Below the pieces are notes generated by a model. That model ran no database searches. It was not told the DNA's origin and saw only the letters and a program-made list of their open reading frames with translations. Positions 1 through 36,290 of a DNA stretch of 64,000 nt are shown in pieces. The position numbers and the translations under genes are program-made. Position 1 is the stretch's first letter; every line of letters begins with the position of its first letter. This DNA is from the human T2T-CHM13v2.0 reference genome, Homo sapiens: NCBI RefSeq assembly GCF_009914755.1, contig NC_060933.1. The stretch is one strand, 5' to 3'.

Positions 1-1500
1 TCAACCCGAGTGCAATGGAATGGAGAGGAATGGAATGGAATGGAATGGAAACTACACGAATGGAATGGAATGTAATGGAGTGTAAGGGAATTGAATAGAA
101 TGAATCCGAATGGAATGGAATGGAAAGGAATGGAATGGAATGGAATGGAATGGAATGGAATGCAATGCCATGGAATCAACCCGAGTGCAATCGAATGGAA
201 TCGAATGGAATGGAATGCAATGGAATTGATTCAACTTGAATGGAATGGAAAGAATGGAATCAACACGAGTGGAACGGCATGGATTGGAATGGAATGGAAT
301 GGAATCAACCCGAGTACAGGGGAATGGAATGGAATGGAATGCAATGGAATGGAATCATCCGTAATGGAATGGAAAGGAATGGAATGGAATGGAATGGAAT
401 GGAATGGAATGGAATGGAATGGAATCAACTCGATTGCAATCGAATGGAATGGAATGGAATTAACCCGAATAGAATGGAATGGAATGGAACGGAACGGAAC
501 GGAACGGAATGGAATGGAATGGAATGGAATGGAATGGAACGGAAAGGAATGGAATGGAACGGAATGGAATGGAATGGAATGGAATGGAATCAACGCGAGT
601 GCAGGGTAATGGAATGTAATGGAATGCAATGGAATGGAATCTTCCGGAATGGAATGGAATGGAATGGAATGGAATCAACCCGAGTGCAATGGAATGGAGT
701 GGAATGGAATGGAATGGAATGGAAGAACCCGAATGGAATGGAATGTAATGGAGAGTAAGGGAGTTGAATAGAATCATTCCGAATGTAATGGAATGGAATG
801 GAACGGAATGGAATTGAAAGGAATGGAATGGAATGCAATGGAATGGAATCAACCCGAGTGCAATGGAATGGAGAGGAATGGAATGGAATGGAATGGAAAC
901 TACCCGAATGGAATGTAATGTAATGGAGTGTAAGGGAATTGAATAGAATCAATCCGAATGTAATGGAATGGAATGGAACGGAATGGAATGGAATGGAATG
1001 GAATGGAATGGAATGGAATGAACCCGAGTGCAATCGAATGGAATCGAATGGAATGCAATGCAATGGAATGGATTCAACTTGAATGGAATGGAAAGAATGG
1101 AATCAACACGAGTGGAATGGCATGGATTGGAATGGAATGGAATGGAATCAACCCGAGTACAGGGGAATGGAATGGAATGGAATGCAATGGAATGGAGTCA
1201 CCCGTAATGGAATGGAAAGGAATGGAATGGAATGGAATGGAATGGAATGGAATGGAATGGAATGGAATCAACTCGATTGCAATCCAATGGAATGGAATGG
1301 AATTAACCCAAATAGAATGGAATGGAATGGAATGGAACGGAACGGAATGGAATGGAATGGAATGGAATGGATTGGAATGGAATGGAACGGAACGGAACGG
1401 AATGGAATGGAATGGAATGGAATGGAATGGAATCAACGCGAGTGCAGGGGAATGGAATGGAATGGAATGCAATGGAATGGAATCTTCCGGAATGGAATGG
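1..1500 (+). repeat. Direct repeat, copy 1 (~4.2-kb period; partner ~4210-5700)
   Basis: Rare variants shared at ~4.2-kb offset: ACTACACGAA (51/4260), TGCAATGCCA (161/4370), GCAGGGTAATGGAATGTAAT (601/4795). Spurious ORFs 52..234 and 4261..4443 differ at one residue. Confidence 0.85.
636..650. promoter_or_regulatory. Perfect 3-unit heat-shock element (representative of ~30 copies)
   Basis: gGAAt-cTTCc-gGAAt matches nGAAnnTTCnnGAAn. Also at 1479, 1584, 4830, 5663, 5887 and 8371, and as attccggaagattcc in the inverted block. Motif match only; binding not shown. Confidence 0.55.
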
Positions 1501-4209
1501 AATGGAATGGAATGGAATCAAATGGAATGGAATGGAATCAACGCGAGTGCAGGGGAATGGAATGGAATGGAATGCAATTGAATGGAATCTTCCGGAATGG
1601 AATGGGATGGAATGGAATGGAATGGAATGGAATGGAATCAACCCGAGTGCAATGGAATGGAGTGGAATGGAATGGAATGGAATGGAACAACCCGAATGGA
1701 ACGGAATGTAATGGAGAGTAAGGGAGTTGAATAGAATCAATCCGAATGTAATGGAATGGAATGGAACGGAATGGAATGGAATGGAATGGAATGGAATGCA
1801 ATGGAATGGAATCAACCCGAGTTCAATGGAATGGAGAGGAATGGAATGGAATGGAATGGAAACTACCCGAATGGAATGGAATGTAATGGAGTGTAAGGGA
1901 ATTGAATAGAATCAATCCGAATGTAATGGAATGGAATGGAACGGAATGGAATGGAATGGAATGCAATGGAATGGAATCAACCCGAGTGCAATCGAATGGA
2001 ATCGAATGGAATGGAATGCAATGGAATGGATTCAACTTGAATGGAATGGAAAGAATGGAATCAACACGAGTGGAATGGCATGGATTGGAATGGAATGGAT
2101 TGGAATCAACCCGAGTACAGGGGAATGGAATGGAATGGAATGGAATGGAATGGAATGGAATGGAATTGAATGGAATGGAATGCCTTCAAACCGAATGGAA
2201 TGGAAAGGAATGGAATCAACACGAGTGGAAAGGAATGGAATGGAAAGGAATGGTACGGAATAGAATGGAATGGAACGAACTGGAATGGAATGGAATGGAA
2301 TGGAATGGAATGGAATGGAATGGAATGGAATCGTTCCGAGTGGAATAGCTGGGAATGTATTCGAGTGGAATGGAAAGGAATGGAATCAACCAGAGTGGAA
2401 TGGAAGGGAATGGAATGGAATGGAAACTAATAGAATGGAATCAACCCGAGTGGAATGGAATGGAAAGGACTGGAGTGGAATGGAATGGAATGGAATGGAA
2501 TGGAATCAACTCGATTGTAAAGGAATGTATTGGAATGGAATGGAATGGAATGGAATGGAATGGAATTGACCCGAATACAATGGAATGGAATGGAATGGAA
2601 AGGAATGGAGTGGAATGGAATGGAATCAACCCGAGTGCAGGGGAATGGAATGGAATGGAATGCAATGGAATGGAATCATCCGGAATGGAATGGAATGGAA
2701 TGGAATGCAAAGCAATGGAATCAACTCGATTGCAATGGAATGGAATGGAATAGAATGGAATAGAATGGAATCAACCCGAGTGTAATGGAATGGAAAGGAC
2801 TGGAATGTAGTGGAATGGAATGGAATGGAATGGAATCAACTCGATTGGAATGGAATGGAATGGAATGGAATGGAATGGAATTAACCTGAATAGAATGGAA
2901 TGGAATGGAATGGAATGGAACGGAATGGAATGCAGTGGAATGGAATGGAATGGAATGGAATGGAATGGAATGGAATCAACCCGACTGCAGGGGAATGGAA
3001 TGGAATGGAATGGAATCATCCGGAACGGAATGGAATGGAATGGAATGGAATCAACTCGATGGCAATGGAATGGAATGGAATGGAATGGAATGGAATGGAA
3101 TCGAATGGAATGGAATGGAATTAACCGGAATAGAATGCAATGGAATGGAATGGAACGGAATGGAATGGAATGGAATGGAATGGAATCGAATGGAATCAAC
3201 CCGAGTGCAGGGGAATGGAATGGAATGGAATCCAATGGAATGGAATCATCCGGAATGGAATGGAATGGAATGGAATGCAATCAACCTGATGCAATGGAAT
3301 GGAGTGGAATGGAATGGAATGGAATGGAAACATCCCGAATGGAATGGAATGTAATGGAGTGTAAGGGAATTGAATAGAATCAATCCGAATGTAATGGAAT
3401 GGAATGGAATGGAATGGAATGGAATGGAATGGAATGGAATCAACCCGAGTGCAATGGAATGGATTCGAATGGATTGGAATGGAATGGATTCAATAAGAAT
3501 GGAATGGAAAGGAATGGAATCAACCCGAGTGTAATGGCATGGAATGGAACAGAATGGAATGGGATGGAATGGAATGGTACGGAATAGAATGGAATGGAAT
3601 GAAATGGAATGGAATGGAATGGAACGGAATGGAATGGAATGGAATGGAATGAACCCGTGTGCAATGGAATGGAATGGAATGGAATGGAATGGATTCAACT
3701 CGAATGGAATCAACTCGATTGCAATGGAATGGAATGGAATTGAAAGGAATAGAATGGAATCAACCCGAGTGGAATGGAATGGAAAGGACTGGAATGGAGT
3801 GGAATGGAATGGAATGGAATTAACCCGAATAGAATGAAATGGGACGGAATGGAATGGAATGTAATGGAATGGAATGGAATGGAATCAACCTGAGTGCAGG
3901 GGAATGGAATGGAATGGAATGCAATGGAATGGAATCATCCGGAATGGAATGGAATGGAATGGAATGGAATGGAATGGAATGGAATCAACTCGATTTCAAT
4001 GGAATGGAATGGAATAGAATGGAATGGAATTAACACGAATAGAATGGAATGGAATGGAATTGAATGGAACAGAAAGGAATGGAATGGAATGGAATGGAAT
4101 CAACCTAAGTGCAGGAGAATGGAATGGAATGGAATTCAATGGAATGGAATCATCCGGAATGGAATGGAATGGAATGGAATGGAATGGAATGGAATGGAAT
4201 TGAATGGAA

Positions 4210-5700
4210 TCAACCCGAGTGCAATGGAATGGAGAGGAATGGAATGGAATGGAATGGAAACTACACGAATGGAATGGAATGTAATGGAGTGTAAGGGAAT
4301 TGAATAGAATGAATCCGAATGGAATGGAATGGAAAGGAATGGAATGGAATGGAATGGAATGGAATGGAATGCAATGCCATGGAATCAACCCGAGTGCAAT
4401 CGAATGGAATCGAATGGAATGGAATGCAATGGAATGGATTCAACTTGAATGGAATGGAAAGAATGGAATCAACACGAGTGGAATGGCATGGATTGGAATG
4501 GAATGGAATAGAATCAACCCGAGTACAGGGGAATGGAATGGAATGGAATGCAATGGCATGGAATCATCCGTAATGGAATGGAAAGGAATGGAATGGAATG
4601 GAATGGAATGGAATGGAATGGAATGGAATCAATTCGATTGCAATCGAATGGAATGGAATGGAATTAACCCGAATAGAATGGAATGGAATGGAACGGAACG
4701 GAACGGAACGGAATGGAATGGAATGGAATGAAACGGAAAGGAATGGAATGGAACGGAATGGAATGGAATGGAATGGAATGGAATCAAAGCGAGTGCAGGG
4801 TAATGGAATGTAATGGAATGCAATGGAATGGAATCTTCCGGAATGGAATGGAATGGAATGGAATGGAATCAACCCGAGTGCAATGGAATGGAGTGGAATG
4901 GAATGGAATGGAATGGAACAACCCGAATGGAATGGAATGTAATGGAGAGTTAGGGAGTTGAATAGAATCAATCCGAATGTAATGGAATGGAATGGAATTG
5001 AATGGAATGCAATGGAATGCAATGGAATGGCATCAACCCGAGTGCAATGGAATGGAGAGGAATGGAATGGAATGGAATGGAAACTACCCGAATGGAATGG
5101 AATGTAATGGAGTGTAAGGGAATTGAATAGAATCAATCCGAATGTAATGGAATGGAATGGAACGGAATGGAATGGAATGGAATGGAATGGAATGGAATGG
5201 AATGCAATGGAATGGAATCAACCCGAGTGCAATCGAATGGAATCGAATGGAATGGAATGCAATGGAATGGATTCAACTTGAATGGAATGGAAAGAATGGA
5301 ATCAACACGAGTGGAATGGCATGGATTGGAATGGAGTGGAATGGAATCAACCCGAGTACAGGGGAATGGAATGGAATGGAATGCAATGGAATGGCATCAT
5401 CCGTAATGGAATGGAAAGGAATGCAATGGAATGGAATGGAATGGAATGGAATGGAATGGAATGGAATCAACTCGATTGCAATCGAATGGAATGGAATGGA
5501 ATTAACCCGAATAGAATGGAATGGAATGGAATGGAACGGAACGGAATGGAATGGAATGGAATGGAATGGAATGGAACGGAACGGAATGGAATGGAATGGA
5601 ATGGAATGAAATGGAATCAACGCGAGTGCAGCGGAATGGAATGGAATGGAATGCAATGGAATGGAATCTTCCGGAATGGAATGGAATTGAATGGGATGGA
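4210..5700 (+). repeat. Direct repeat, copy 2 of 1-1500
   Basis: Same word order and rare variants as 1-1500; offset drifts between ~4194 and 4209 through pentamer-count changes. Confidence 0.85.
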
Positions 5701-6494
5701 ATGGAATGGTAGGGAATAAACCCGAGTGCAATGGAATGGAGTGGAATGGAATGGAATGGAATGGAACAACCCGAATGGAAAGGAATGTAATGGAGACTAA
5801 GGGAGTTGAATAGAATCAATACGAATGTAATGGAATGGAATGGAACGGAATGGAATTGAATGAAATGGAATGGAATACAATGGAATGGAAACTTCCGGAA
5901 TGGAATGGAATGGAATGGAATGGAATGATATGCAATGGATTCAACTCGATTGCAATGGAATGGAATAGAACGGAATGGAATGGCATGGAATGGAATTAAT
6001 CCGAATAGAATGGAATTGAATGGAATGGGATTAACCTGAATAGAATGGAATGGAATGGAATGGAACGGAATGGAATGGAATGGAATGGAATGCAATGGAA
6101 TGGAATGGAACGGAATGGAATGGTATGGAATGGAATGGAATGGTACGGAGTAGAATGGAATGGAACGAATTGTAATGGAATGGAATTGAATGGAATGGAA
6201 TGGAATGGAATGGAATCAACGCGAGCGCAGGGGAATGTAATGGAACGGAATGCAATGGAATGGAATCATCCGGAATGGAATGGAATGGAATGGAATAGAA
6301 TGGAATGGAATGGAATCAACCCGAGTGCAATGGAATGGAGTGGAATGGAATGGAATGGAATGGAACAACCCGAATGGAATGGAATGTAATGGAGAGTAAG
6401 GGAGTTGAATAGAATCAATCGGAATGTAATGGAATGGAATGCAACGGAATGGAATGGAATGGAATGCAATGGAATGGAATGGAATGCAAAGGAA

Positions 6495-7888
6495 TGGAAT
6501 CAACCTGAGTGGAATGGCATGGAATGGAATGCAATGGAATGGAATGGAAAGAAATCAACTCGAGTGGAAAGGAATGGAATGGAATGGAAAGGAATGGAAT
6601 GAAATCAACTCGAGTGGAATGGAATGGAATGGATTGGAATGGATTGCAATGGAATGAAATGGAATGGAATGGAATGGAATCAATCATTCCGAGTGGAATG
6701 GAAGGGAATGTAATGGAGTGGAAAGAAGGGAATGGAATCAACCCGATTGGAATGCAAGGCAATGGAATGCAATGGAATGGAACGGAATGGAATGGAATAG
6801 AAGGTAATGGAATCAACACGAGTGCAGGGGAATGGAATGGAATGGAATGCAATGGAATGGAATCATCCAGAATGAAATGGAATGGAATGGAATCAACTCC
6901 ATTGCAATGGAATGGAATGGAGTGGAATGGAATGGAATAGAATGGAATGGAATTAACCCGTATAGAATGGAATGCAATAGAATGGAATGGAACGGAACCG
7001 AATGGATTGGAATGGAATGGAATGGAATCAACCTGAGTGCAGGGGAATGGAATGGAATGGAATGCAATGGAATGGAATCATCCGGAATGGAATGGAATGG
7101 AATGGAATGGAATCAAACCCAGTGCAATGGAATGGAGTGAAATGGAATGGAATGGAATGGAAACAACCAGAATGGATTGGAATATAATGGAGTGTTAGGG
7201 AATTGAATAGAATCAATCTGAATGTAATGAAATGGAGTGGAACGGAATGGAATGGAATGGAATGGAATCGAATGGAATGGAATGGAATGGAATGAACCTG
7301 AGTGGAATGGCATGGAATGGAATGCAATGGAATGGAATGGAATGGAATGGAATAGTTCGGAATAGAATGGATTGGAACAAAATGGAATGGAATGGAATGG
7401 AATGGAATGGAATGGAATGGAATAGAATGGAATGGAATGGAATCAAGTCGATTGCAGTGGAATAGAATGGAGTGGAATGGAATGGATTGCAATGGAATGG
7501 AATGGAATGGAATGGAATTAAATGGAATGGAAAGGAATGGAATCAACCCGAGTGCAGGGGAAAGGAATGGAATGGAATGCAATGGAATAGAATGGAATGG
7601 AATGGAATGGAATCAACCCGAGTGGAATGGCATGGAATGGAATGCAAAGGAATGGAATGGAACGGAATCAACTAGAGTGGAAAGGAATGGAATGGAATGG
7701 AAAGGAATGGAATGAAATCAACTCGAGTGGAATGGAATATAATGGAATGGATTGGAATGGATTGCAATGGAATGAAATGGAATGGAATGGAATGGAATCA
7801 ATCATTCCGAGTGGAATGGAAGGGAATGTAATGGAGTGGAAAGAAGGGAATGGAATCAACCCGAGTGGAATGCAAGGCAATGGAATGG
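6495..7888 (+). repeat. Dispersed ~280-bp duplication of a divergent module (6495-6770 and 7608-7888)
   Basis: Both contain CAATCATTCCGAGTGGAATGGAAGGGAATGTAATGGAGTGGAAAGAAGGGAATGG and GAATGCAAGGCAATGG; offset ~1113-1118. Confidence 0.85.
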
Positions 7889-8745
7889 AATGGAAAGGAA
7901 TGGAATGGAATCAACTCGATTGCAATCGCATGGAATGGAATGGAATGGAATGGAAAGGAATGGAATGGAATGAAATGGGATGGAATGGAATGCAATGGAA
8001 TGGAATCAACCCGAGTGCAATCGAATGGAATCGAATGGAATGGAATGCAATGGAATGGATTCAACTTGAATGGAATGGAAAGAATGGAATCAACACGAGT
8101 GGAATGGCATGGATTGGAATGGAATGGAATGGAATCAACCCGAGTACAGGGGAATGGAATGGAATGGAATGCAATGGAATGGAATCATCCGTAATGGAAA
8201 GGAAAGGAATGGAATGGAATGGAATGGAATGGAATGGAGTGGAATCAACTCGATTGCAATCGAATGGAATGGAATGGAATTAACCCGAATAGAATGGAAT
8301 GGAATGGAATGGAACGGAACGGAACGGAATGGAATGGAATGGAATGGAATGGAATGGAATGGAATGGAATGGAATCTTCCGGAATGGAATGGAATGGAAT
8401 GGAATCAACTCGAGTGCAATGGAGTGGAGTGGAATGGAATGGAATGGAATGGAACAACCTGAATGGAATCGAATGTAATGGAGAGTAAGGGAGTTGAATA
8501 GAATCAATCCAAATGTAATGGAATGGAATGGAACGGAATGGAATTGAATGGAATGGAATGGAATGCAATGGAATGGAATCAACCCGAGTGCAATGGAATG
8601 GAGAGGAGGGGAATGGAATGGAGTGGAAACTACCCGAATGGAATGGAATGTAATGGAGTGTAAGGGAATTGAATAGAATCAATCCGAATGTAATGGAATG
8701 GAATGGAACGGAATGGAATGGAATGGAATGGAATGGAAAGAAGGG

Positions 8746-8773
8746 AATGGAATCAACCCGAGTTGATTCCATT
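8746..8773. other. Satellite inversion breakpoint forming a 28-bp quasi-palindrome
   Basis: AATGGAATCAAC-CCGA-GTTGATTCCATT: 12-bp arms are exact reverse complements, centred on CG at 8759/8760, with one mismatched pair (8758/8761). GGAAT runs lie to the left and ATTCC runs to the right. Confidence 0.95.
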
Positions 8774-11232
8774 GCTTTGCATTCCGTTCCATTCCATTCC
8801 TTTTCATTGTATTCGGGTTAATTCCATTGCATTCCATTCCATTCCTTTCCATTCCATTCCATTCCATTACAATGGAGTTGATTCCATTCCATTCCATTCC
8901 ATTCCATTCCATTCCATTCTAGTCCTTTCCATTCCATTCCACTCGGGTTGATTCCATTCTATTAGTTTCCATTCCATTCCATTCCTTTCCATTGCACTCT
9001 GGTTGATTCCATTCCTTTCCATTTCACTCGAATACATTCCCTCCTATTCCACTCGGAACGATTCCATTCCATTCCATTCCATTCCATTCCATTCCATTCC
9101 AGTCCATTCCATTTCGTTCCATTCCATTCTATTCCGTACCATTCCATTCCATTCCATTCCATTGCATTCGATTCCATTCCACTCGTGTTGATTACATTCC
9201 TTTCCATTCCATTCAGTTTGAAGGCATTCCATTCCATTCAATTCCATTCCATTCCATTCCATTCCATTCCATTCCATTCCATTCCATTCCATTCCATTGT
9301 ACTCGGGTTGATTCCATTCCATTGCATTCTATTCCATTCCATTCCATTCCATTCCATTCCATTCAATTCCATTCCATTCCGGATGATTCCATTCCATTGC
9401 ATTCCATTCCATTCCATTCCCCTGCACTCGGGTTGATTACATTCCATTCCCTTCCCTTCCATTCCTTTCCATTCCATTCCATTCCATTCTATTCGGGTGA
9501 ATTCCATTCCATTCCATTCCATTCCATTCCATTCCATTGCAATCGAGTTGATTCCATTACATTCCATTCCATTCCGTTCCGGATGATTCCATTCCATTGC
9601 ATTCCATTCCATTCCATTCCCCTGCACTCGGGTTGATTCCATTCCATTCCATTCCATTCCATTCCATTCTATTCCATTCCGTTCCATTCCATTCCATTCC
9701 ATTCTATTCGGGTTAATTCCATTCCATTCCTTTCCATTCCATTCCAATCGAGTTAATTCCATTCCATTGCATTCCATTCCACTCCATTCCAGTCCTTTCC
9801 ATTCCATTCCACTCGGGTTGATTCCATTCTATTCCTTTCCATTCCATTCCATTGCAATCGAGTTGATTCCATTGCATTGCATTCCATTCCATTCCATTCC
9901 ATTCCGGATGATTCCATTCCATTGCATTCCATTCCATTCCATTCCCCTGCACTCGGGTTGATTCCATTCCATTCCACTCCATTCCGTTCCATTGCATTCC
10001 ATTCCATTGTATTCGGGTTAATTCCATTCCATTCCATTCCATTCCATTCCATTCCATTCCATTCCATTCCATTCCATTCCATTACAATCGAGTTGATTCC
10101 ATTCCATTCCATTCCATTCCATTATATTCCATTCCATTCCATTACATTCCATTCCATTCCTTTCCATTCCATTCCACTCGGGTTGATTCCATTCTATTAG
10201 TTTCCATTCCATTCCATTCCCTTCCATTCCACTCTGGTTGATTCCATTCCTTTCCATTCCACTCGAATACATTCCCTCCTATTCCCTCGGAACAATTCCA
10301 TTCCATTCCATTGCATTCTATTCCATTCCATTCCGTTCCATTCCATTCTATTCCATACCATTCCATTCCATTCCATTCCATTCCATTCCATTCCATTCCA
10401 TTCCACTCGTGTTGATTCCATTCCTTTCCATTCCATTCGGTTTGAAGCCATTCCATCCCATTCAATTCCATTCCATTCCTTTCCATTCCATTTCGGATCA
10501 TGCCATTCCATTGCTTTCCATTCCATTCCATTCCCCTGTACTCAGGTTTATTCCATTCCATTCCATTGCAATCTATGGCATTCCACTCGTGTTGATTCCA
10601 TTCTTTCCATTCCATTCTAGTTGAATCCATTCCATTGCATTCCATTCCATTCGATTCCATTCGATTGCACTCGGGTTGATTCCATTCCATTCCATTCCAT
10701 TCCATTCCATTCCATTCCATTCCGTTCCATTCCATTCCATTACTTTCGGATTGATTCTTTTTAACTCCCTTACTCTCCATTACATTCCATTCCATTCGGG
10801 TTCTTCCATTCCATTCCATTCCATTCCACTCCATTCCATTGCACTCGGGTTGATTCCATTCCATTGCATTCCATTCCATTCCATTCCATTCCATTCCATT
10901 CCGGATGATTCCATTCCATTGCATTCCGTTCTATTACATTCCCCTGCAATCGCGTTGATTCCATTCCATTCCATTCCATTCCATTCGATTCCATTCCATT
11001 CCAATTCGTTCCATTCCATTCTATTCCGTACCATTCCATTCCATTCCATAGCATTCCATTCCATTCCATTCCATTCCATTCCTTTCCATTCCGTTCTATT
11101 CCGTTCCATTCGATTCCATTCCATTCCATTCTATTAGGGTTAAATCCATTCCATTCCATTCCATTCCATTCTATTCCATTCCATTGCAATCGAGTTGAAT
11201 CCATTGCATTCCATTCCATTCCATTCCATTCC

Positions 11233-11247
11233 ATTCCGGAAGATTCC
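11233..11247. promoter_or_regulatory. Perfect 3-unit heat-shock element, inverted-block form
   Basis: aTTCc-gGAAg-aTTCc; recurs at e.g. 12291, 16706, 24386, 27646, 35223, 40342, 53421, 61783, 63521 and 63781. Confidence 0.55.
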
Positions 11248-14200
11248 ATTCCATTGCATTCCATTCCATTCCATTCCATTCCATTCCCCTGCACTCGCGT
11301 TGATTCCATTCCATTCAATTCCATTCCATGCCATTCCATTCCGTTCCGTTCCGTTCCATTCCATTCCATTCCATTCCATTCCGTTCCGTTCCATTCCATT
11401 CCATTCCATTCTATTCGGGTTAATTCCATTCCATTCCATTCGATTGCAATCGAGTTCATTCCATTCCATTCCATTCCATTCCATTCCATTCCATTCCTTT
11501 CCATTCCATTACTAATGATTCCATTCCATTGCATTCCATTCCATTCCATTCTCCTGTACTCGGGTTGATTCCATTCCATTCCATTCCATTCCATGCCATT
11601 CCACTCGTGTTGATTCCATTCTTTCCATTCCATTCAAGTTGAATCCATTCCATTGCATTCCATTCCATTCGATTCCATTCGATTGCACTCGGGTTGATTC
11701 CATTATATTGCATTCCATTCCATTCCATTCCATTCCATTCCATTGTACTCGGGTTGATTCCATTCCATTGCATTCCATTCCATTCCATTCCGTTCCATTC
11801 CATTCCATTACATTCGGGTTGATTCTATTCAACTCCCTTACTCTCCATTACGTTCCATTCCATTCGTGCTGTTCCATTCCATTCCATTCCATTCCACTCC
11901 ATTGCATTGCACTCGGGTTGATTCCAATCCATTCCATTCCATTCCATTCCATTCCGGATGATTCCATTCCATTGCATTCCGTTCCATTAAATTCGCCTGC
12001 ACTCGGGTTGATTCCATTCCATTCCATTCCATTCCATATCATTCCATTCGATTCCATTCCATTCCAATTCTTTCCATTCCATTCTATTCCGTACCATTCC
12101 ATTCCATTCCATACAATTCCATTCCATTCCTTTCCATTCCATTCCATTCCGTTCCGTTCCGTTCCGTTCCGTTCCATTCCATTCCATTCCATTCTATTCG
12201 GGTTAAATCCATTCCATTCCATTCCATTCTATTCCACTCCATTGCAATCGAGTTGAATCCATTGCATTCCATTCCATTCCATTCCAATCCATTCCGGAAG
12301 ATTCCATTCCATTGCATTCCATTCCATTCCATTCCCCTGCACTCGCGTTGAATCCATTCCATTCCATTCCATTCCATTCCATTCCATTCCATTCCATTCC
12401 TTTCCGTTCCATTGCATTCCATTCCATTCCATTCCCTTCCATTCCGTTCCGTTCCATTCCATTCCATTCCATTCTATTGGGGTTAATTCCATTCCATTCC
12501 ATTTGATTACAATCGAGTTGATTCCAATCCATTCCAATCCATTCCATTCCATTCCATTCCTTTCCATTCCATTACGGATGATTCCATTCCATTGCATTCC
12601 ATTCCATTCCATTCCCCTGTACTTGGGTTGATTCCATTCCATTCCATTCCAATCCATGCCATTCCACTCGTGTTGATTCCATTCTTTCCATTCCATTCAA
12701 GTTGAATCCATTCCATTGCATTCCATTCCATTCGATTCCATTCGATTGCACTCGGGTTGATTACATTCCATTGCATTCCATTCCATTCCATTCCATTCCA
12801 TTCCATTCTATTCCGTTCCATTCCATTCCATTACATTCGGATTGATTCTTTTCAACTCCCTTACTCTCCATTACATTCCATTCCATTCGGGTTGTTCCAT
12901 TCCATTCCATTGCATTCCACTCCATTCCATTGCACTCGGGTTGATTCCATTCCATTCCATTCCATTCCATTCCATTCCATTCCATTCCATTCCCCTGCAC
13001 TCGCGTTGATTCCATTCCATTCCATTCCATTCCATTCCATTCCTTTCCGTTCCATTCCATTCCATTCCATTCAATTCCGTTCCGTTCCATTCCATTCCAT
13101 TCCATTCTATTCGGGTTAATTCCATTCCATTCCATTCGATTGCAATCGAGTTGATTCCATTCTATTCCATTCTATTCCATTCCATTCCATTCCATTCCAT
13201 TCCATTCCTTTCCATTCCATTCCGGATGATTCCATTCCATTGCATTCCGTTCCATTACATTCCCCTGCACTCGGGTTGATTCCATTCCATTCCATTCCAT
13301 TCCATTCCATTCCATTCCATTCCATTCCAATTCTTTCCTTTCCATTCTATTCCGTACCATTCCATTCCATTCCATTCCATTCCATTTCATTCCATTCCAT
13401 TCTATTCCGTACCATTCCATTCCATCCCATTCCATTCCATTCCATTCCATGCCATTACACTCGGGTTCATTCCATTCCTTTCCATTCCATTCTTGTTGAA
13501 TCCATTCCATTCCATTCCATTCGATTCCATTCCATTGCACTCCGGTTGATTCCATTCCATTCCATTCCATTCGATTTCATTCCATACCATTCCATTACAT
13601 TCGGATTGATTCTATTCAATTCCCTTACACTCCATTACATTCCATTCCATTCGGGATGTTTCCATTCCATTCCACTCTATTCCATTGCATCGGGTTGATT
13701 CCATTCCATTCCATTCCATTCCATTCAATTCCATTCCATTCCATTCCATTCGATTCCGGATGATTCCATTCCATTGCATTCCATTCCATTCCATTCCCCT
13801 GCACTCGGGTTGATTACTTTCCATTCCCTCCCCTTCCATTCCTTTCCATTCCATTCCATTCCATTCTATTCGGGTGAATTCCATTCCATTCCATTCCATT
13901 CCATTCCATTCCATTCCATTCCATTCCATTTCATTCCATTCCATTCCATTGCAATCGAGTTGATTCAATTCCATTCCATTCCATTCCGTTCCAGATGATT
14001 CTATTCCATTGCATTCCATTCCATTCCATTCCCCTGCACTCGGGTTGATTCCTTTCCATTCCATTCCATTCCATTCCATTCTATTCCATTCCGTTCCATT
14101 CCATTCCATTTCATTCTATTTGGGTTAATTCCATTCCATTCCATTCCATTCCATTCCAATCGAGTTGATTCCATTCCATTCCATTCCATTCCACTCCATT

Positions 14201-14989
14201 CCAGTCCTTTCCATTCCATTCCACTCGGGTTGATTCCATTCTATTCCTTTCCATTCCATTCCATTGCAATCGAGTTGATTCCATTGCATTGCATTCCATT
14301 CCATTCCATTCCATTCCGGATGATTCCATTCCATTGCATTCCATTCCTTTCCATTCCCCTGCACTCGGGTTGATTCCATTCCATTCCACTCCATTCCGTT
14401 CCATTCCATTCCATTCCATTGTATTCGGGTTAATTCCATTCCATTCCATTCCATTCCATTCCATTCCATTACAATCGAGTTGATTCCATTCCATTCCATT
14501 CCATTCCATTCCATTCAATTCCTTTGCATTCCATTCCACTCGGGTTGATTCCATTCTATTAGTTTCCATTCCATTCCATTCCCTTCCATTCCACTCTGGT
14601 TGATTCCACTCCTTTCCATTCCACTCGAATACATTCCCTCTTAATCCACTCGGAACAATTCCATTCCATTCCATTCCATTCCATTCCATTTCGTTCCATT
14701 CCATTCTATTCCGTACCATTCCATTCCATTCCATTCCATTCCATTTCATTCCATTGTACTCGGGTTGATTCCATTCCATTGCATTCCATTCCATTCCATT
14801 CAATTCCATTCCGTTCCATTCCATTCCATTACATTCGGATTGATTCTATTCAACTCCCTTACTTTCAATTACATTCCATTCCATTCGGATTGATTGTATT
14901 CAACTCCCTTACTCTCCATTACATTCCATTCCATTCGGGTTGTTCCATTCCTTTCCATTCCTTTCCACTCCATTCCACTGCACTCGGGT

Positions 14990-15955
14990 TGATTCCATTC
15001 CATTCCATTCCATTCCATTCCATTCTGGATGATTCCATTCCATTGCATTCCGTTCTATTACATTTCCCTGCACTCGCGTTGATTCCATTCCATTCCATTC
15101 CATTCGATTCCATTCCATTCCAATTCGTTCCATTCCATTCTATTCCGTACCATTCCATTAAATTCCATGCCATTCCATTCCATTCCATTCTATTCCATTC
15201 CATTCCATTCCGTTCTATTCCGTTCCATTCCATTCCATTCCATTCTATTAGGGTTAATTCCATTCCATTCCATTCCATTCCATTCTATACCATTCCATTG
15301 CAATCGAGTTGAATCCATTGCATTCCATTCCATTCCATTCCATTCCATTCCATTACGGAAGATTCCATTCCATTGCATTCCATTCCATTCCATTCCATTC
15401 CCCTGCACTCGCGTTGATTCCATTCCATTCCATTCCATTCCATTCCATTCCATTCAATTCCATTCCATTCCATTCCATTCGATTCCGGATGATTCCATTC
15501 CATTCCATTCCATTCCATTCCATTCCATTCTGGATGATTCCATTCCATTGCATTCCGTTCCATTACATTTCCCTGCACTCGCGTTGATTCCATTCCATTC
15601 CATTCCATTCCATTCCATTCCATTCCAATTCGTTCCATTCCATTCTATTCCGTACCATTCCATTAAATTCCATGCCATTCCTTTCCATTCCATTCTATTC
15701 CATTCCATTCCATTCCGTTCTATTCCGTTCCATTCCATTCCATTCCATTCTATTAGGGTTAATTCCATTCCATTCCATTCCATTCCATTCTATACCATTC
15801 CATTGCAATCGAGTTGAATCCATTGCATTCCATTCCATTCCATTCCATTCCATTCCATTCCGGAAGATTCCATTCCATTGCATTCCATTCCATTCCATTC
15901 CCCTGCACTCGCGTTGATTCCATTCCATTCCATTCCATTCCATTCCATTCCATTC
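14990..15955 (-). repeat. ~505-bp tandem duplication nested in block X (also in X' at ~23520-24485)
   Basis: TCTGGATG, CATTTCCCTG, CATTAAATTCCATGCC, CTATTAGGGTTAA and CTATACC each recur at +505. Confidence 0.9.
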
Positions 15956-17792
15956 CGTTCCGTTCCGTTCCGTTCCGTTCCATTCCATTCCATTCCATTC
16001 CATGCCATTCCGTTCCGTTCCATTCCATTCAATTCCATTCTATTCGGATTAATTCCATTCCATTCCATTTGATTGCAATCGAGTTGATTCCATTCCATTC
16101 CATTCCATTCCATTCCTTTCCATTCCATTACTAATGATTCCATTCCACTGCATTCCATTCCATTCCATTGCATTCCATTCCATTCCATTCCGTTCCATTC
16201 CATTCCATTACATTCGGGTTGATTGTATTCAACTCCCTTACTCTCCATTACATTCCCTTCCATTCGTGTTGTTCCATTCCATTCCATTCCATTCCACTCC
16301 ATTGCATTGCACTCGGGTTGATTCCATTCCATTCCATTCGATTCCATTCCATTCCATTCCATTCCGGATGATTCCATTCCATTGCATTCCGTTCCATTAC
16401 ATTCCCCTGCACTCGGGTTGATTCCATTCCATTCCATTCCATTCCATACCATTCCATTCGATTCCATTCCATTCCAATTCTTTCCATTCCATTCTATTCC
16501 GTACCATTCCATTCCATTCCATACAATTCCATTCCATTCCGTTCCATTCCATTCCGTTCCGTTCCGTTCCGTTCCGTTCCGTTCCATTCCATTCCATTCC
16601 ACTCTATTCGGGTTAATTCCATTCCATTCCATTCCATTCCATTCTATTACATTCCATTGCAATCGAGTTGAATCCATTTCATTCCATTCCATTCCATTCC
16701 ATTCCATTCCGGAAGATTCCATTCCATTGCATTCCATTCCATTCCATTCCCCTGCACTCGCGTTGATTCCATTCCATTCCATTCCATTCCATTCCATTCC
16801 TTTCCGTTTCATTCCATTCCATTCTATTCCATTCCATTCCATTCCGTTCCGTTCTGTTCCATTCCATTCCATTCCATTCTATTCGGGTTAATTCCATTCC
16901 ATTCCATTCCATTCGATTACAATCGAGTTGATTCCATTCCATTCCATTCCATTCCTTTCCATTCCATTACGGATGATTCAATTCCATTGCATTCCATTCC
17001 ATTCCATTCCCCTGTACTCGGGTTGATTCCATTCCATTCCATTCCAATCCATGCCATTCCACTCGTGTTGATTCCATTCTTTCCATTCCATTCAAGTTGA
17101 ATCCATTCCATTGCATTCCATTCCATTCGATTCCATTCGATTGCACTCGGGTTGATTCCATGGCATTGCATTCCATTCCATTCCATTCCATTCCATTCCA
17201 TTCCATTCCATTCCATTCCATTCGGATTCATTCTATTCAATTCCCTTACACTCCATTACATTCCATTCCATTCGGGTAGTTTCCATTCCATTCCATTCCA
17301 TTCCTCTCCATTCCATTGCACTCGGGTTGATTCCATTCCATTCCATTCCATTCCATTCCATTCCATTCCGGATGATTCCATTCCATGGAATTCCATTCCA
17401 TTCCATTCCCCTGCACTTGGGTTGATTCCATTCCATTCCATTCCATTCCTTTCTGTTCCATTCTATTCCATTCCATTCCATTCTATTCTTGTTAATTCCA
17501 TTCCATTCTATTCCATTCCATTCCATTGAAATCGAGTTGATTCCATCCCATTCCATTCCATTCCATTCCATTCCATTCCATTCCATTCTGGATGATTCCA
17601 TTCCATTGCATTCCATTCCATTCCATTCCCCTACACTCGGGTTGATTCCATTCCATTCCATTCCATTACATTCCGTTCCATTCCGTTCCATTCCATTCTA
17701 TTCGGGTTAATTCCATTCCATTCCATTCCACTCCATTCCAGTCCTTTCCATTCCATTCCATTCTATACCATTCCATTGCAATCGAGTTGAAT

Positions 17793-20700
17793 CCATTCCA
17801 TTCCATTCCATTCCATTCCATTCCATTCCATTCCATTGTACTCGGGTTGATTCCATTCCATTGCATTCTATTCCATTCCATTCCATTCCATTCCATTCCA
17901 TTCAATTCCATTCCATTCCGGATGATTCCATTCCATTGCATTCCATTCCATTCCATTCCCCTGCACTCGGGTTGATTACATTCCATTCCCTTCCCTTCCA
18001 TTCCTTTCCATTCCATTCCATTCCATTCTATTCGGGTGAATTCCATTCCATTCCATTCCATTCCATTCCATTCCATTGCAATCGAGTTGATTCCATTACA
18101 TTCCATTCCATTCCGTTCCGGATGATTCCATTCCATTGCATTCCATTCCATTCCATTCCCCTGCACTCGGGTTGATTCCATTCCATTCCATTCCATTCCA
18201 TTCCATTCTATTCCATTCCGTTCCATTCCATTCCATTCCATTCTATTCGGGTTAATTCCATTCCATTCCTTTCCATTCCATTCCAATCGAGTTAATTCCA
18301 TTCCATTGCATTCCATTCCACTCCATTCCAGTCCTTTCCATTCCATTCCACTCGGGTTGATTCCATTCTATTCCTTTCCATTCCATTCCATTGCAATCGA
18401 GTTGATTCCATTGCATTGCATTCCATTCCATTCCATTCCATTCCGGATGATTCCATTCCATTGCATTCCATTCCATTCCATTCCCCTGCACTCGGGTTGA
18501 TTCCATTCCATTCCACTCCATTCCGTTCCATTGCATTCCATTCCATTGTATTCGGGTTAATTCCATTCCATTCCATTCCATTCCATTCCATTCCATTCCA
18601 TTCCATTCCATTACAATCGAGTTGATTCCATTCCATTCCATTCCATTCCATTATATTCCATTCCATTCCATTACATTCCATTCCATTCCTTTCCATTCCA
18701 TTCCACTCGGGTTGATTCCATTCTATTAGTTTCCATTCCATTCCATTCCCTTCCATTCCACTCTGGTTGATTCCATTCCTTTCCATTCCACTCGAATACA
18801 TTCCCTCCTATTCCCTCGGAACAATTCCATTCCATTCCATTGCATTCTATTCCATTCCATTCCGTTCCATTCCATTCTATTCCATACCATTCCATTCCAT
18901 TCCATTCCATTCCATTCCATTCCATTCCATTCCACTCGTGTTGATTCCATTCCTTTCCATTCCATTCGGTTTGAAGCCATTCCATCCCATTCAATTCCAT
19001 TCCATTCCTTTCCATTCCATTTCGGATCATGCCATTCCATTGCTTTCCATTCCATTCCATTCCCCTGTACTCAGGTTTATTCCATTCCATTCCATTGCAA
19101 TCTATGGCATTCCACTCGTGTTGATTCCATTCTTTCCATTCCATTCTAGTTGAATCCATTCCATTGCATTCCATTCCATTCGATTCCATTCGATTGCACT
19201 CGGGTTGATTCCATTCCATTCCATTCCATTCCATTCCATTCCATTCCATTCCGTTCCATTCCATTCCATTACTTTCGGATTGATTCTTTTTAACTCCCTT
19301 ACTCTCCATTACATTCCATTCCATTCGGGTTCTTCCATTCCATTCCATTCCATTCCACTCCATTCCATTGCACTCGGGTTGATTCCATTCCATTGCATTC
19401 CATTCCATTCCATTCCATTCCATTCCATTCCGGATGATTCCATTCCATTGCATTCCGTTCTATTACATTCCCCTGCAATCGCGTTGATTCCATTCCATTC
19501 CATTCCATTCCATTCGATTCCATTCCATTCCAATTCGTTCCATTCCATTCTATTCCGTACCATTCCATTCCATTCCATAGCATTCCATTCCATTCCATTC
19601 CATTCCATTCCTTTCCATTCCGTTCTATTCCGTTCCATTCGATTCCATTCCATTCCATTCTATTAGGGTTAAATCCATTCCATTCCATTCCATTCCATTC
19701 TATTCCATTCCATTGCAATCGAGTTGAATCCATTGCATTCCATTCCATTCCATTCCATTCCATTCCGGAAGATTCCATTCCATTGCATTCCATTCCATTC
19801 CATTCCATTCCATTCCCCTGCACTCGCGTTGATTCCATTCCATTCAATTCCATTCCATGCCATTCCATTCCGTTCCGTTCCGTTCCATTCCATTCCATTC
19901 CATTCCATTCCGTTCCGTTCCATTCCATTCCATTCCATTCTATTCGGGTTAATTCCATTCCATTCCATTCGATTGCAATCGAGTTCATTCCATTCCATTC
20001 CATTCCATTCCATTCCATTCCATTCCTTTCCATTCCATTACTAATGATTCCATTCCATTGCATTCCATTCCATTCCATTCTCCTGTACTCGGGTTGATTC
20101 CATTCCATTCCATTCCATTCCATGCCATTCCACTCGTGTTGATTCCATTCTTTCCATTCCATTCAAGTTGAATCCATTCCATTGCATTCCATTCCATTCG
20201 ATTCCATTCGATTGCACTCGGGTTGATTCCATTATATTGCATTCCATTCCATTCCATTCCATTCCATTCCATTGTACTCGGGTTGATTCCATTCCATTGC
20301 ATTCCATTCCATTCCATTCCGTTCCATTCCATTCCATTACATTCGGGTTGATTCTATTCAACTCCCTTACTCTCCATTACGTTCCATTCCATTCGTGCTG
20401 TTCCATTCCATTCCATTCCATTCCACTCCATTGCATTGCACTCGGGTTGATTCCAATCCATTCCATTCCATTCCATTCCATTCCGGATGATTCCATTCCA
20501 TTGCATTCCGTTCCATTAAATTCGCCTGCACTCGGGTTGATTCCATTCCATTCCATTCCATTCCATATCATTCCATTCGATTCCATTCCATTCCAATTCT
20601 TTCCATTCCATTCTATTCCGTACCATTCCATTCCATTCCATACAATTCCATTCCATTCCTTTCCATTCCATTCCATTCCGTTCCGTTCCGTTCCGTTCCA

Positions 20701-23700: not shown

Positions 23701-25177
23701 ATTCCATTCCATTCCATTCTATTCCATTCCATTCCATTCCGTTCTATTCCGTTCCATTCCATTCCATTCCATTCTATTAGGGTTAATTCCATTCCATTCC
23801 ATTCCATTCCATTCTATACCATTCCATTGCAATCGAGTTGAATCCATTGCATTCCATTCCATTCCATTCCATTCCATTCCATTACGGAAGATTCCATTCC
23901 ATTGCATTCCATTCCATTCCATTCCATTCCCCTGCACTCGCGTTGATTCCATTCCATTCCATTCCATTCCATTCCATTCCATTCAATTCCATTCCATTCC
24001 ATTCCATTCGATTCCGGATGATTCCATTCCATTCCATTCCATTCCATTCCATTCCATTCTGGATGATTCCATTCCATTGCATTCCGTTCCATTACATTTC
24101 CCTGCACTCGCGTTGATTCCATTCCATTCCATTCCATTCCATTCCGTTCCATTCCAATTCGTTCCATTCCATTCTATTCCGTACCATTCCATTAAATTCC
24201 ATGCCATTCCTTTCCATTCCATTCTATTCCATTCCATTCCATTCCGTTCTATTCCGTTCCATTCCATTCCATTCCATTCTATTAGGGTTAATTCCATTCC
24301 ATTCCATTCCATTCCATTCTATACCATTCCATTGCAATCGAGTTGAATCCATTGCATTCCATTCCATTCCATTCCATTCCATTCCATTCCGGAAGATTCC
24401 ATTCCATTGCATTCCATTCCATTCCATTCCCCTGCACTCGCGTTGATTCCATTCCATTCCATTCCATTCCATTCCATTCCATTCCGTTCCGTTCCGTTCC
24501 GTTCCGTTCCATTCCATTCCATTCCATTCCATGCCATTCCGTTCCGTTCCATTCCATTCAATTCCATTCTATTCGGATTAATTCCATTCCATTCCATTTG
24601 ATTGCAATCGAGTTGATTCCATTCCATTCCATTCCATTCCATTCCTTTCCATTCCATTACTAATGATTCCATTCCACTGCATTCCATTCCATTCCATTGC
24701 ATTCCATTCCATTCCATTCCGTTCCATTCCATTCCATTACATTCGGGTTGATTCTATTCAACTCCCTTACTCTCCATTACATTCCCTTCCATTCGTGTTG
24801 TTCCATTCCATTCCATTCCATTCCACTCCATTGCATTGCACTCGGGTTGATTCCATTCCATTCCATTCGATTCCATTCCATTCCATTCCATTCCGGATGA
24901 TTCCATTCCATTGCATTCCGTTCCATTACATTCCCCTGCACTCGGGTTGATTCCATTCCATTCCATTCCATTCCATACCATTCCATTCGATTCCATTCCA
25001 TTCCAATTCTTTCCATTCCATTCTATTCCGTACCATTCCATTCCATTCCATACAATTCCATTCCATTCCGTTCCATTCCATTCCGTTCCGTTCCGTTCCG
25101 TTCCGTTCCGTTCCATTCCATTCCATTCCACTCTATTCGGGTTAATTCCATTCCATTCCATTCCATTCCATTCTATT
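17793..25177 (-). repeat. ~7.4-kb segmental block X' (copy 2)
   Basis: Differs from X mainly by whole-pentamer indels and a handful of substitutions. Similarity ends at ...CATTCTATT (16648/25177). Confidence 0.95.
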
Positions 25178-26730: not shown

Positions 26731-27440
26731 TCCATTCCATTACATTCGGATTGATTCTATTCAACTCCCTTACTCTCCATTACATTCCATTCCATTCGGG
26801 TTGTTCCATTCCATTCCATTCCATTCCATTCCATTCCATTCCATTCCATTGCACTCGGGTTGATTCCATTCCACTCCATTCCATTCCATTCCATTCCAGA
26901 TGATTCCATTCCATTGCATTCCGTTCCATTACATTCCCCTGCACTCGCGTTGATTCCATTCCATTCCATTCCATTCCATTCAATTCCATTCCATTAAAAT
27001 TCGTTCCATTCCATTCTATTCCGTACCATTCCATTCCATTCCATACAATTCCATTCCATTCCATTCCATTCCATTCCGTTCCATTCCATTCCATTACATT
27101 CGGATTGATTCTATTCAACTCCCTTACTCTCCATTACATTCCATTCCATTCGGGTTGTTCCATTCCATTCCATTCCATTCCATTCCATTCCATTCCATTG
27201 CACTCGGGTTGATTCCATTCCACTCCATTCCATTCCATTCCATTCCGGATGATTCCATTCCATTGCATTCCGTTCCATTACATTCCCCTGCACTCGCGTT
27301 GATTCCATTCCATTCCATTCCATTCCATTCAATTCCATTCCATTACAATTCGTTCCATTCCATTCTATTCCGTACCATTCCATTCCATTCCATACAATTC
27401 CATTCCATTCCATTCCATTCCATTCCATTCCATTCCATTC
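26731..27440 (-). repeat. ~350-bp tandem duplication
   Basis: TACATTCGGATTGATTCTATTCAACTCCCTTACTCTCC at 26741 and 27095, each followed by the same word series through CATACAATTCC. Confidence 0.85.
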
Positions 27441-36125: not shown

Positions 36126-36290
36126 ATTCCATTCCATTCCATTCCTTTCCATTCCATTCCGTTCCATTCGGATTCATTCTAATCAATTCCCTTACACTCC
36201 ATTATATTCCATTCCATTCCATTCCTTTCCATTCCATTCCATTCCATTCGGATTCATTCTAATCATTTCCCTTACACTCCATTACATTCC
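36126..36290 (-). repeat. 80-bp tandem duplication
   Basis: GATTCATTCTAATCA(A/T)TTCCCTTACACTCC at 36171 and 36251; about 3 mismatches. Confidence 0.9.

What the first reader, a model, noticed from the sequence alone, without database searches (positions are those of the whole stretch)
8746..8773. Inversion breakpoint joins two different satellite words through a CGAGT microhomology and creates a palindrome
Seen: the left side ends in the word CAACC-CGAGT(G) and the right side begins as the inverted word (CAAT)-CGAGT-TGATTCC. They overlap in CGAGT (8759-8763) with no inserted bases, giving a 28-bp stem with a single mismatched pair. Inference: pure GGAAT has no inverted homology, so the CG-centred variant words are among the few places where opposite strands can pair and may be built-in inversion hotspots. 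Established: inversions occur inside HSat3 arrays, notably on chr9.
Basis: partly seen in the sequence, partly recalled or inferred. Interest (0 to 1): 0.8.

Follow-up and report, generated by a model that had tools for sequence, protein, structure and literature searches.

The report
Amplified inversion scar in chr9 satellite
This is a real head-to-head strand switch in the giant chromosome 9 satellite, made once through a five-base overlap between two repeat words and then copied about fifty times as the array grew, so it is an old scar and not a recurrent hotspot.

Summary
At 8746-8773 the HSat3B5 array flips from GGAAT to ATTCC through a 28-nt near-palindrome with one mismatched pair (8758 C / 8761 A). 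It is the only switch in the 64 kb. An overlap of 5 nt or more arises in 0.15% of simulated random joins. The palindrome itself is ordinary, arising in 10.5% of such joins.

The junction is not a private event. Its 22-mer occurs 44 times exactly and 9 times with one mismatch, in both orientations, only on chr9 (51.07-75.68 Mb). All 51 copies read share a core around it, with median 98.4% identity over +/-150 bp. Four junction sequences (D1 82, A 53, B 28, D2 11) make up 174 of the 184 chr9 strand switches I identified, and at least 213 must exist.

Collapsed to 11 founder families, breaks show more microhomology than chance. They show no clear preference for CG words (6-7 of 22 sides against a 17% baseline). 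No second mirrored CAAC junction (words 5-20 nt apart) exists genome-wide.

Verdict: one ancient microhomology-mediated join, later amplified and flipped. The hotspot idea is not supported.

The parts
1..8763 (+). HSat3B5 block in GGAAT orientation. It is the right-hand 8.7 kb of a block 49.8 kb long that begins at a D1 divergent junction outside the window (chr9:71,568,953).
   Evidence: 583 GGAATGGAAT and 0 ATTCCATTCC in 1-8745. The HSat3B5 24-mer is on the bottom strand at 9 places, 57-8635.
8754..8763 (+). End of the left arm: the word CAACCCGAGT. In uninverted paralogues it continues GGAATGCAAGG.
   Evidence: Eight of the 11 uninverted paralogues of the 18-nt context (the 12th non-exact copy is a one-mismatch junction copy) agree with the junction through CAACCCGAGT and then read G where the junction reads T.
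8759..8763 (.). CGAGT, the 5-nt stretch that both parental words can claim (microhomology).
   Evidence: The chance of an overlap of 5 nt or more in random joins is 0.146%.
8759..8770 (-). Start of the right arm: the reverse complement of GGAATCAACTCG. In uninverted paralogues it continues ATTGCAATGG.
   Evidence: Nineteen of 21 paralogues of the 24-nt context continue TCGATTG.
8746..8773 (.). 28-nt near-palindrome. The arms AATGGAATCAAC / GTTGATTCCATT are the shared 5' part of both words. The single mismatch, 8758 C opposite 8761 A, records the difference between the words CAACC and CAACT.
8725..8826 (.). Minimal core shared by every copy of this junction family that was read: 35 nt on the GGAAT side and 67 nt on the ATTCC side of the centre.
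   Evidence: 51 of 53 copies. Half of them share at least 400 nt on both sides.
8759..64000 (-). HSat3B5 block in ATTCC orientation. It is the first 55 kb of an 87.3-kb block that ends at a D1 junction at chr9:71,706,094.
   Evidence: 0 GGAATGGAAT and 4043 ATTCCATTCC in 8775-64000. The HSat3B5 24-mer occurs 41 times on the top strand. D1 position.

Best explanation
The site is one copy of an old founder junction, here called family A, inside the chr9 HSat3B5 array. It is a structural scar with no function of its own.

Founding event. Two paralogous words in opposite orientation were joined head to head at the 5 nt they share when inverted (CGAGT / ACTCG). One word was ...GGAATCAACCCGAGT|GG.... 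The other was the reverse complement of ...GGAATCAACTCG|ATTG.... No base was added. Both words begin AATGGAATCAAC and were cut at the same relative place, so the join is automatically a near-palindrome. Its one mismatch is the C/T difference between the two words.

Mechanism of the join. It was microhomology-mediated. I lean, at about 55:45, to a non-reciprocal replicative template switch over two-break end joining, because no reciprocal junction can be found.

Later history. The junction rode along as the array expanded by duplications of up to roughly 8.7 and 10.6 Mb. Blocks that contain it were also turned over, most simply by recombination between oppositely oriented blocks. The result is 53 copies in both orientations.

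What is shown and what is inferred. Shown: the anatomy, the overlap, the single origin, the copy number, and the order mutation-then-duplication. Inferred: the repair pathway and the flipping mechanism.
For: Anatomy and overlap:
- An overlap this long is rare by chance: 0.146% of 200,000 simulated joins.
- It uses a top-ranked inverted 5-mer pair of the array.

Single origin:
- The 22-mer occurs 44 times exactly (27 forward, 17 reverse) and 9 times with one mismatch. All hits are on chr9.
- Fifty-one of the 53 copies were read. Their identity to the consensus over +/-150 bp has median 0.984, lower quartile 0.954 and minimum 0.81.
- Every copy shares at least 35 nt on one side and 67 nt on the other, and half share at least 400 nt on both sides.
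- Flanks of the same word elsewhere in the array are only 0.80 alike, with a maximum of 0.90 over 60 pairs.

Amplification:
- The spacing patterns of junctions repeat at offsets of about 10.6 Mb and 8.7-8.8 Mb.
- Eight of the 9 one-mismatch variants form 4 pairs at exactly those offsets. Those four mutations therefore predate the duplications.

Not a fold-back or a chimeric-read artefact:
- The arms are not mirror images beyond 14 nt.
- The right flank has no above-background inverted match in the left block (score 421 against a background of 355-448).

Context:
- Four junction sequences give 174 of the 184 identified chr9 switches.
- The literature reports 'over 200 inversion breakpoints' in this array.
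- It also reports switch numbers that scale with array length, r = 0.90.
Against: - The reciprocal junction expected from a balanced inversion was not found. The pattern GCCTTGCATTCC-N(0-20)-GCAATGGAAT gave 0 hits. The motif TTCCACTCGATTGCAAT gave 97 hits, but 6 of 6 chr9 hits and 1 chrY hit that I read are ordinary words inside one orientation. The type of founding event therefore stays open.
- Some copies keep only 35-100 nt of common flank. Neighbouring junction types and distances are scrambled. The history is therefore more complex than plain duplication.
- The parental words are inferred from paralogues, not from an uninverted ancestral allele.
- Two of the 53 copies were not read.
- No read-level or second-genome evidence could be consulted.
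Confidence: 0.75

Rival explanations
1. Recurrent hotspot. CG-centred CAAC words are preferred sites at which inverted strands pair, so junctions like this one form again and again.
For: - Pure GGAAT has at most 2 nt of inverted homology.
- CG-containing 5-mers carry 25.7% of inverted pairings against 10.2% of positions.
- Six to 7 of 22 break sides in 11 families lie within 3 nt of a CpG, against 17.2% expected.
Against: - All 51 copies read share flanks well beyond the words.
- No other GGAATCAAC...GTTGATTCC junction with a 5-20 nt gap exists in the assembly.
- The CpG enrichment is not significant (p = 0.16 to 0.07).
- Nine of 22 sides lie in pure pentamers, as expected by chance.
- Families E, F, D3 and D4 join pure pentamers with 0-2 nt of overlap.
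Confidence: 0.06
2. Assembly or sequencing artefact, such as a fold-back chimeric read or a mis-join.
For: No reads could be inspected here. Satellite arrays are hard to assemble.
Against: - The same junction with the same flanks sits at 53 places spread over 24.6 Mb, in both orientations.
- Some copies carry private point mutations that were themselves duplicated.
- A fold-back chimera would give exact mirror arms, which are absent.
- Independent studies report hundreds of strand switches in this array in many assemblies.
Confidence: 0.02
3. The microhomology is only apparent. The join was blunt or used 2 nt, for example between two copies of the same CAACCCGAGT word or at CAAC|ACGG. Later mutation or my choice of paralogues makes it look like 5 nt.
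For: - A blunt model with breaks at CCCGA^GTGCAATGG and at GGAATCAAC^ACGGAATGG reproduces both the A and D1 junction strings on paper. This is my own inference.
- CpG sites mutate fast.
- Two A copies carry CCTGAG.
Against: - The specific 24-nt context of the right arm continues TCGATTG in 19 of 21 paralogues and never ACGG.
- The arms of D1 show only background similarity, 0.77-0.80, to the flanks of A.
- None of the 53 copies carries a perfect-palindrome form.
Confidence: 0.08
4. Balanced two-break inversion repaired by microhomology-mediated end joining, with the partner junction lost, diverged or among the still unidentified divergent junctions. This is a variant of the best explanation, not of its single-origin part.
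For: - A 5-nt overlap without filler fits end joining, as I recall from general knowledge of alt-EJ.
- Twenty-nine map intervals still hide at least one junction each. Six of them lie between two A copies (seven, one solved).
Against: - The predicted partner pattern gave 0 hits.
- The one interval between two A copies that I read through (72.185-72.322 Mb) holds a blunt pure-pentamer junction, D4, with none of the predicted words.
Confidence: 0.3

Closest known systems
Strand switches ('inversion breakpoints') of the chr9 HSat3B5 array in T2T-CHM13 and pangenome assemblies
   Same: It is one of them. Altemose et al. (bioRxiv 10.1101/2021.07.12.452052, section 7 read) report over 200 in this array. 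A 2026 preprint (10.64898/2026.07.22.740206, passages) reports hundreds per assembly, with r = 0.90 against array length. Another (10.64898/2026.09.03.749043, passages) reports about 129 per haplotype.
   Different: In the text I could read, those papers count switches and give no base-level junctions. Here the switches resolve into a few junction sequences, each present in many copies. That explains the scaling with length as co-amplification and not as fresh events.
Microhomology-mediated junctions of non-recurrent structural variants (alt-EJ/MMEJ, FoSTeS/MMBIR); recalled from general knowledge
   Same: A short overlap (5 nt), no filler, and no long homology at the join.
   Different: The substrate is a satellite in which inverted microhomology exists almost only in variant words. 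The junction was afterwards multiplied about 50-fold.
Fold-back inversions and origin-dependent inverted-repeat amplification (ODIRA; PMC10766183, seen only in a search listing)
   Same: A head-to-head junction with a small palindromic centre, linked to amplification.
   Different: The defining long mirror-image arms are absent.
Flip-flop inversion between inverted repeats, as in chloroplast inverted repeats or Y-chromosome palindromes; recalled from general knowledge
   Same: Blocks on the two sides of a switch are inverted repeats of each other. The junctions occur in both orientations (A 27/17, D1 47/35, B 17/11, D2 7/4) with scrambled neighbours.
   Different: The arms are only about 80% alike. 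No flip event was observed directly, so this step is an inference.

Membership tests
HSat3 subfamily B5 (chr9 pericentromeric satellite) | GGAAT/ATTCC-derived repeat that carries the subfamily-enriched 24-mer listed in Table 1 of Altemose 2014 (PMC4022460), and a chr9 location | tested here: met
   The 24-mer occurs 41 times on the top strand (the ten places printed lie right of the junction) and 9 times on the bottom strand (all left of it). The window lies on chr9 inside the array.
Inversion or strand-switch junction | Abrupt and complete change of repeat polarity | tested here: met
   Left block 583/0 and right block 0/4043 for GGAATGGAAT/ATTCCATTCC. It is the single switch in 64 kb.
Microhomology-mediated junction | Both parental sequences can be read across a short shared stretch with no inserted bases, more often than chance allows | tested here: met
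   CGAGT overlap from paralogue continuations. P(overlap of 5 nt or more) = 0.146% in random joins. The parents are inferred from paralogues, not observed.
Balanced (reciprocal) inversion | A second junction built from the two complementary remainders of the broken words | tested here: not met
   0 hits for the predicted partner pattern. The 7 hits of the related motif that I read, out of 97, are ordinary words. D1, D2, D3 and D4 do not carry the predicted continuations. A partner altered by a deletion would escape this test.
Fold-back inversion / palindromic inverted duplication | Arms are reverse complements of each other over hundreds of bases or more | tested here: not met
   Mirror identity is 0.67 at 30 nt and 0.45 at 100 nt. 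There is no above-background inverted match of the flank.
NAHR-mediated inversion (for the founding join) | Long, highly similar inverted repeats at the breakpoint | tested here: not met
   Homology at the join is 5 nt. The flanks differ right beyond the 14-nt arms.
Recurrent breakpoint hotspot | Independent events, on different flanks, at the same words | tested here: not met
   The 51 copies read, of 53, share their flanks. There are 0 other mirrored CAAC junctions with a 5-20 nt gap genome-wide. Only one genome was examined.
Genuine sequence and not an assembly error | Single long reads span the junction | not testable with these tools
   No reads are available here. The indirect support is 53 concordant copies with duplicated private mutations.

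The most novel reading that the evidence does not exclude
Almost all of the more than 200 strand switches of the chr9 HSat3 block descend from about a dozen founding junctions, and four sequences give 174 of the 184 identified. The number of switches in a haplotype would then measure how far the array was amplified and flipped. It would not count how many inversions happened. The junction k-mers and their private mutations would be ready-made lineage barcodes. With them the growth of the 9q12 block could be reconstructed and compared across human haplotypes, straight from reads. The founding joins were microhomology-mediated.
Probability: 0.7. Interest if true: 0.6.

Novelty: new member of a known kind. 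Interest (0 to 1): 0.45.

Why it matters
The chr9 HSat3 block is the largest satellite array in the human genome, and its hundreds of strand switches have so far been reported only as counts.

If those switches are a handful of founder scars multiplied by array growth, three things follow:
- The apparent inversion rate of this satellite drops by more than tenfold.
- The reported correlation of switch number with array length is explained.

The result also gives about a dozen short diagnostic sequences. These could be counted in any long-read or short-read data set to track the history and polymorphism of 9q12.

For the single junction in the window, the message is modest. It is real and neatly microhomology-mediated, but it is old, inert and not special among its 53 copies.

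Tried and rejected
- BLAST of the inverted left flank against the right block timed out. I replaced it with k-mer diagonals and mirror identity.
- Long-arm fold-back: rejected.
- D1 as the exact reciprocal partner of A. A blunt model fits both strings on paper. However, the paralogue continuations and the background-level similarity of the arms (0.77-0.80) speak against it. The segments D1-to-A (12,681 bp) and D1-to-B (3,373 bp) are only 81.8% alike.
- D1 as a fold-back with a spacer. Its arms score slightly above background (about 1170 against 955-996) but are only 80% identical. I left this open.
- Predicted reciprocal motifs: 97 hits that turned out to be a native word in the 7 hits I read, and 0 hits for the stricter pattern.
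- Generic searches for strand switches with pure 10-mer anchors. Only one search was listed in full. The others were cut at 100 rows, so families beyond chr9:54 Mb and on later chromosomes could be missed. D4 was missed for this reason.
- A large palindrome between an A+ and an A- copy: rejected. The switch between them lies 36 kb from one copy and 100 kb from the other.
- Literature searches for a base-level description of HSat3 junctions found none in the texts searched. The supplements of the bioRxiv papers are closed and could hold such tables.

Full report
**What is there.** The window is HSat3B5 satellite on chr9. The subfamily 24-mer of Altemose 2014 occurs 50 times. Up to about 8760 the repeat runs as GGAAT, and after that as ATTCC. 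The left block holds 583 GGAATGGAAT and no ATTCCATTCC. The right block holds none and 4043 (coarser profile). The switch is therefore sharp and is the only one in 64 kb. At the switch, 8746-8773 reads AATGGAATCAACCCGAGTTGATTCCATT.

**Which words were joined.** I asked what follows the flanking context of each arm in uninverted paralogues, using a pool of the window plus fetched chr9 loci.
- The last 24 nt of the right arm, read in GGAAT orientation and ending ...GGAATCAAC, occur 24 times. Three are copies of the junction. Of the other 21, 19 continue TCGATTG, one ACGATTG and one TCGTTTG.
- The last 24 nt of the left arm, ending ...CAACCCGA, occur 10 times. Four are junction copies. The other six continue GTGG (4) or TTGG (2), followed by AATGCAAGG.
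- So the left parent was ...CAACCCGAGT|GG and the right parent was the reverse complement of ...CAACTCG|ATTG. Both can claim CGAGT (8759-8763).
- The mismatch in the palindrome is the C/T difference between the two words.

**Is it more than chance?** I simulated two-break head-to-head joins between random positions of the 55-kb right block.
- Overlap of 0, 1, 2, 3, 4 and 5 or more nt occurred in 64.6, 21.6, 11.4, 1.7, 0.5 and 0.146% of 200,000 joins. The overlap is therefore unusual.
- A palindrome with arms of at least 14 nt and at most one mismatch arose in 10.5% of 50,000 joins. Any two in-phase pieces of this repeat mirror each other, so the palindrome is a by-product.
- Beyond 14 nt the arms are not mirror images: identity is 0.67 at 30 nt and 0.45 at 100 nt.
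- The right flank has no above-background inverted match in the left block. This is not a long-armed fold-back, and it lacks the exact mirror arms of a chimeric fold-back read.
- As single-stranded DNA the site can form a 12-bp hairpin at -12.7 kcal/mol.

**The junction is not unique.** Its 22-mer GGAATCAACCCGAGTTGATTCC occurs 44 times in the assembly, 27 forward and 17 reverse. All hits are on chr9 between 51.07 and 75.68 Mb. Nine further sites differ by one base, again all on chr9, and none is a perfect palindrome.

I read 51 of these 53 copies.
- Identity to their consensus over +/-150 bp has median 0.984, lower quartile 0.954 and minimum 0.81.
- Each copy shares at least 35 nt on the GGAAT side and 67 nt on the ATTCC side, and half share at least 400 nt on both sides.
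- Flanks of the same word elsewhere in the array are 0.80 alike, with a maximum of 0.90 over 60 pairs.

The copies therefore descend from one event. Spacing patterns repeat at offsets of about 10.6 Mb and 8.7-8.8 Mb. Eight of the nine one-mismatch variants form four pairs at those offsets. Those four mutations arose on the junction before the megabase duplications.

**The rest of the array.** Generic searches for strand switches and exact counts gave the following families, all confined to chr9.
- Divergent junction D1 (CCATTGCACACGGAATGG): 82 copies, 47/35.
- Second convergent junction B (CAACCCGAGTGCATTCCATTGC): 28 copies, 17/11.
- Divergent junction D2: 11 copies, 7/4.
- Rare families E, F, G and H: 2, 2, 1 and 1 copies.

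On the map, convergent and divergent junctions alternate, as they must. One hundred and eighty were placed, and 33 intervals needed at least one more. Reading through four such intervals gave four further families, C1, C2, D3 and D4. The result is 184 identified and at least 213 in all, which fits the 'over 200 inversion breakpoints' of Altemose et al.. Four sequences make up 174 of the 184.

Our copy sits between two D1 junctions, 49.8 kb to the left and 87.3 kb to the right. Neighbour types, orientations and distances around A and B copies are scrambled, apart from a few conserved modules such as D1 then 12,681 bp then A, seen three times.

**The hotspot idea.** The premise is sound. Pure GGAAT shares at most 2 nt with its own complement. 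In this array CGAGT/ACTCG provides 7.8% of all inverted 5-mer pairings. CG-containing 5-mers provide 25.7% of pairings against 10.2% of positions. However, TGCA and TGCAAT/ATTGCA words offer as much, and B used TGCA.

After collapsing copies into 11 founder families (H is a derivative of B), the inferred overlaps are:
- A: 5 nt
- B: 4 nt
- D2: 3-5 nt
- D1: 2 nt
- D3: 2 nt
- G: 1-3 nt
- C1: 0-2 nt
- C2: 1 nt
- E: 1 nt
- F: 0 nt
- D4: 0 nt

Several are ambiguous, and D1 depends on which paralogous word is taken as its parent. Five to seven of 11 families have at least 2 nt (p = 0.011 to 0.0002 against the null). Two to three have at least 4 nt (p = 0.002 to 0.00005). Microhomology use is therefore general.

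Break position is not clearly biased. Six to 7 of 22 sides lie within 3 nt of a CpG, against a 17.2% baseline (p = 0.16 to 0.07). Nine of 22 lie in pure pentamers, against 35.8%. No other junction with GGAATCAAC and GTTGATTCC 5-20 nt apart exists anywhere in the assembly (0 hits). The data show one lucky use of a good microhomology, not a hotspot.

**Mechanism.** The join is microhomology-mediated. A balanced inversion should have left a partner junction made of the two remainders (...GCCTTGCATTCC... joined to ...GCAATGGAAT...). That pattern has 0 hits.

A shorter motif had 97 hits. The seven that I read are a native word of the array that contains an 18-nt perfect palindrome, not a switch. 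D1, D2, D3 and D4 do not carry the predicted continuations.

I therefore lean slightly (55:45) to a non-reciprocal replicative template switch. In that model a nascent 3' end ...CGAGT anneals to ACTCG on a strand of the same polarity. The alternative is two-break end joining. A partner altered by a deletion or hidden in the 29 unresolved intervals cannot be excluded.

The later spread rests on segmental duplication, which is shown. The turning-over of blocks is shown by the presence of both orientations. Its mechanism, recombination between oppositely oriented blocks, is inferred.

**Comparison with print.** These are the texts I read:
- Section 7 and passages of Altemose et al. 2021.
- Passages of Altemose 2014.
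- Passages of two 2026 preprints.

They report counts of strand switches, their correlation with array length (r = 0.90), and the view that switches are random by-products of expansion. None gives junction sequences or families. Four searches found no such description.

**Verdict.** The site is one of 53 copies of an old scar. The wider point, that the array's switches reduce to a few amplified founder junctions, is the more interesting result and can be tested directly in existing pangenome data.

Noticed in passing
window 9253-16648 and 17782-25177: A local tandem duplication with an offset of 8,529 bp (also 8,524 and 8,539) lies inside the ATTCC block. It starts about 500 bp right of the junction and does not include it.
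   Followed up: partly
window 8800-64000 (about 20 copies); L020-L025 around position 1001: The array has a native word, CAACTCGATTGCAATCGA(A/G)TGG, that carries a perfect 14-nt palindrome, TCGATTGCAATCGA. One variant carries an 18-nt palindrome, ACTCGATTGCAATCGAGT. The motif TTCCACTCGATTGCAAT has 97 genomic hits, 94 on chr9 and 3 on chrY. None of the 7 hits I read is a strand switch.
   Followed up: partly
chr9 52.3-54.6 vs 61.0-63.4 Mb, and 54.6-61.3 vs 65.2-71.8 Mb (outside the window): The order, orientation and spacing of junctions repeat at offsets of about 8.7-8.8 Mb and about 10.6 Mb. This indicates multi-megabase duplications inside the HSat3 array. The window lies in the second copy of the 10.6-Mb pair.
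   Followed up: partly
chr9:52,339,073-76,360,095 (82 sites; L009, L011-L014, L034): One divergent junction sequence, D1 (CCATTGCACACGGAATGG), accounts for 82 strand switches. The five copies shown share flanks for about 100 nt, except one left flank that differs after about 25 nt.
   Followed up: partly
chr9:52,936,686-76,390,057 (28 sites; L011): A second amplified convergent junction, B, joins CAACCCGAGTGCA to TGCATTCC through the palindromic TGCA. It differs from the A 22-mer at only 2 positions but has different flanks. One copy, H at chr9:75,367,557, lacks the 10 nt CAACCCGAGT.
   Followed up: partly
chr7:58,725,954-59,037,567 (outside the window): The chr7 GGAAT/ATTCC satellite has its own small set of switches. 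The convergent form GGAATCAATTCC / GGAATTGATTCC occurs at 4 sites. The divergent form ATTCCAATGGAAT / ATTCCATTGGAAT occurs at 3 sites. They look like copies of one pair in both orientations.
   Followed up: no
window 6723, 7841, 8738: The rare 24-nt context that precedes the junction recurs on the same strand 897 and 1,118 bp upstream. This points to a local period of about 1 kb in the GGAAT block.
   Followed up: no
chr9:72,221,166-72,221,178 (L122): Divergent junction D4...ATTCCATTCC|GAATGGAATGG..., is a blunt join of pure pentamers that creates a new CpG. I found it by bisecting the interval between an A+ and an A- copy. Its copy number was not determined.
   Followed up: partly
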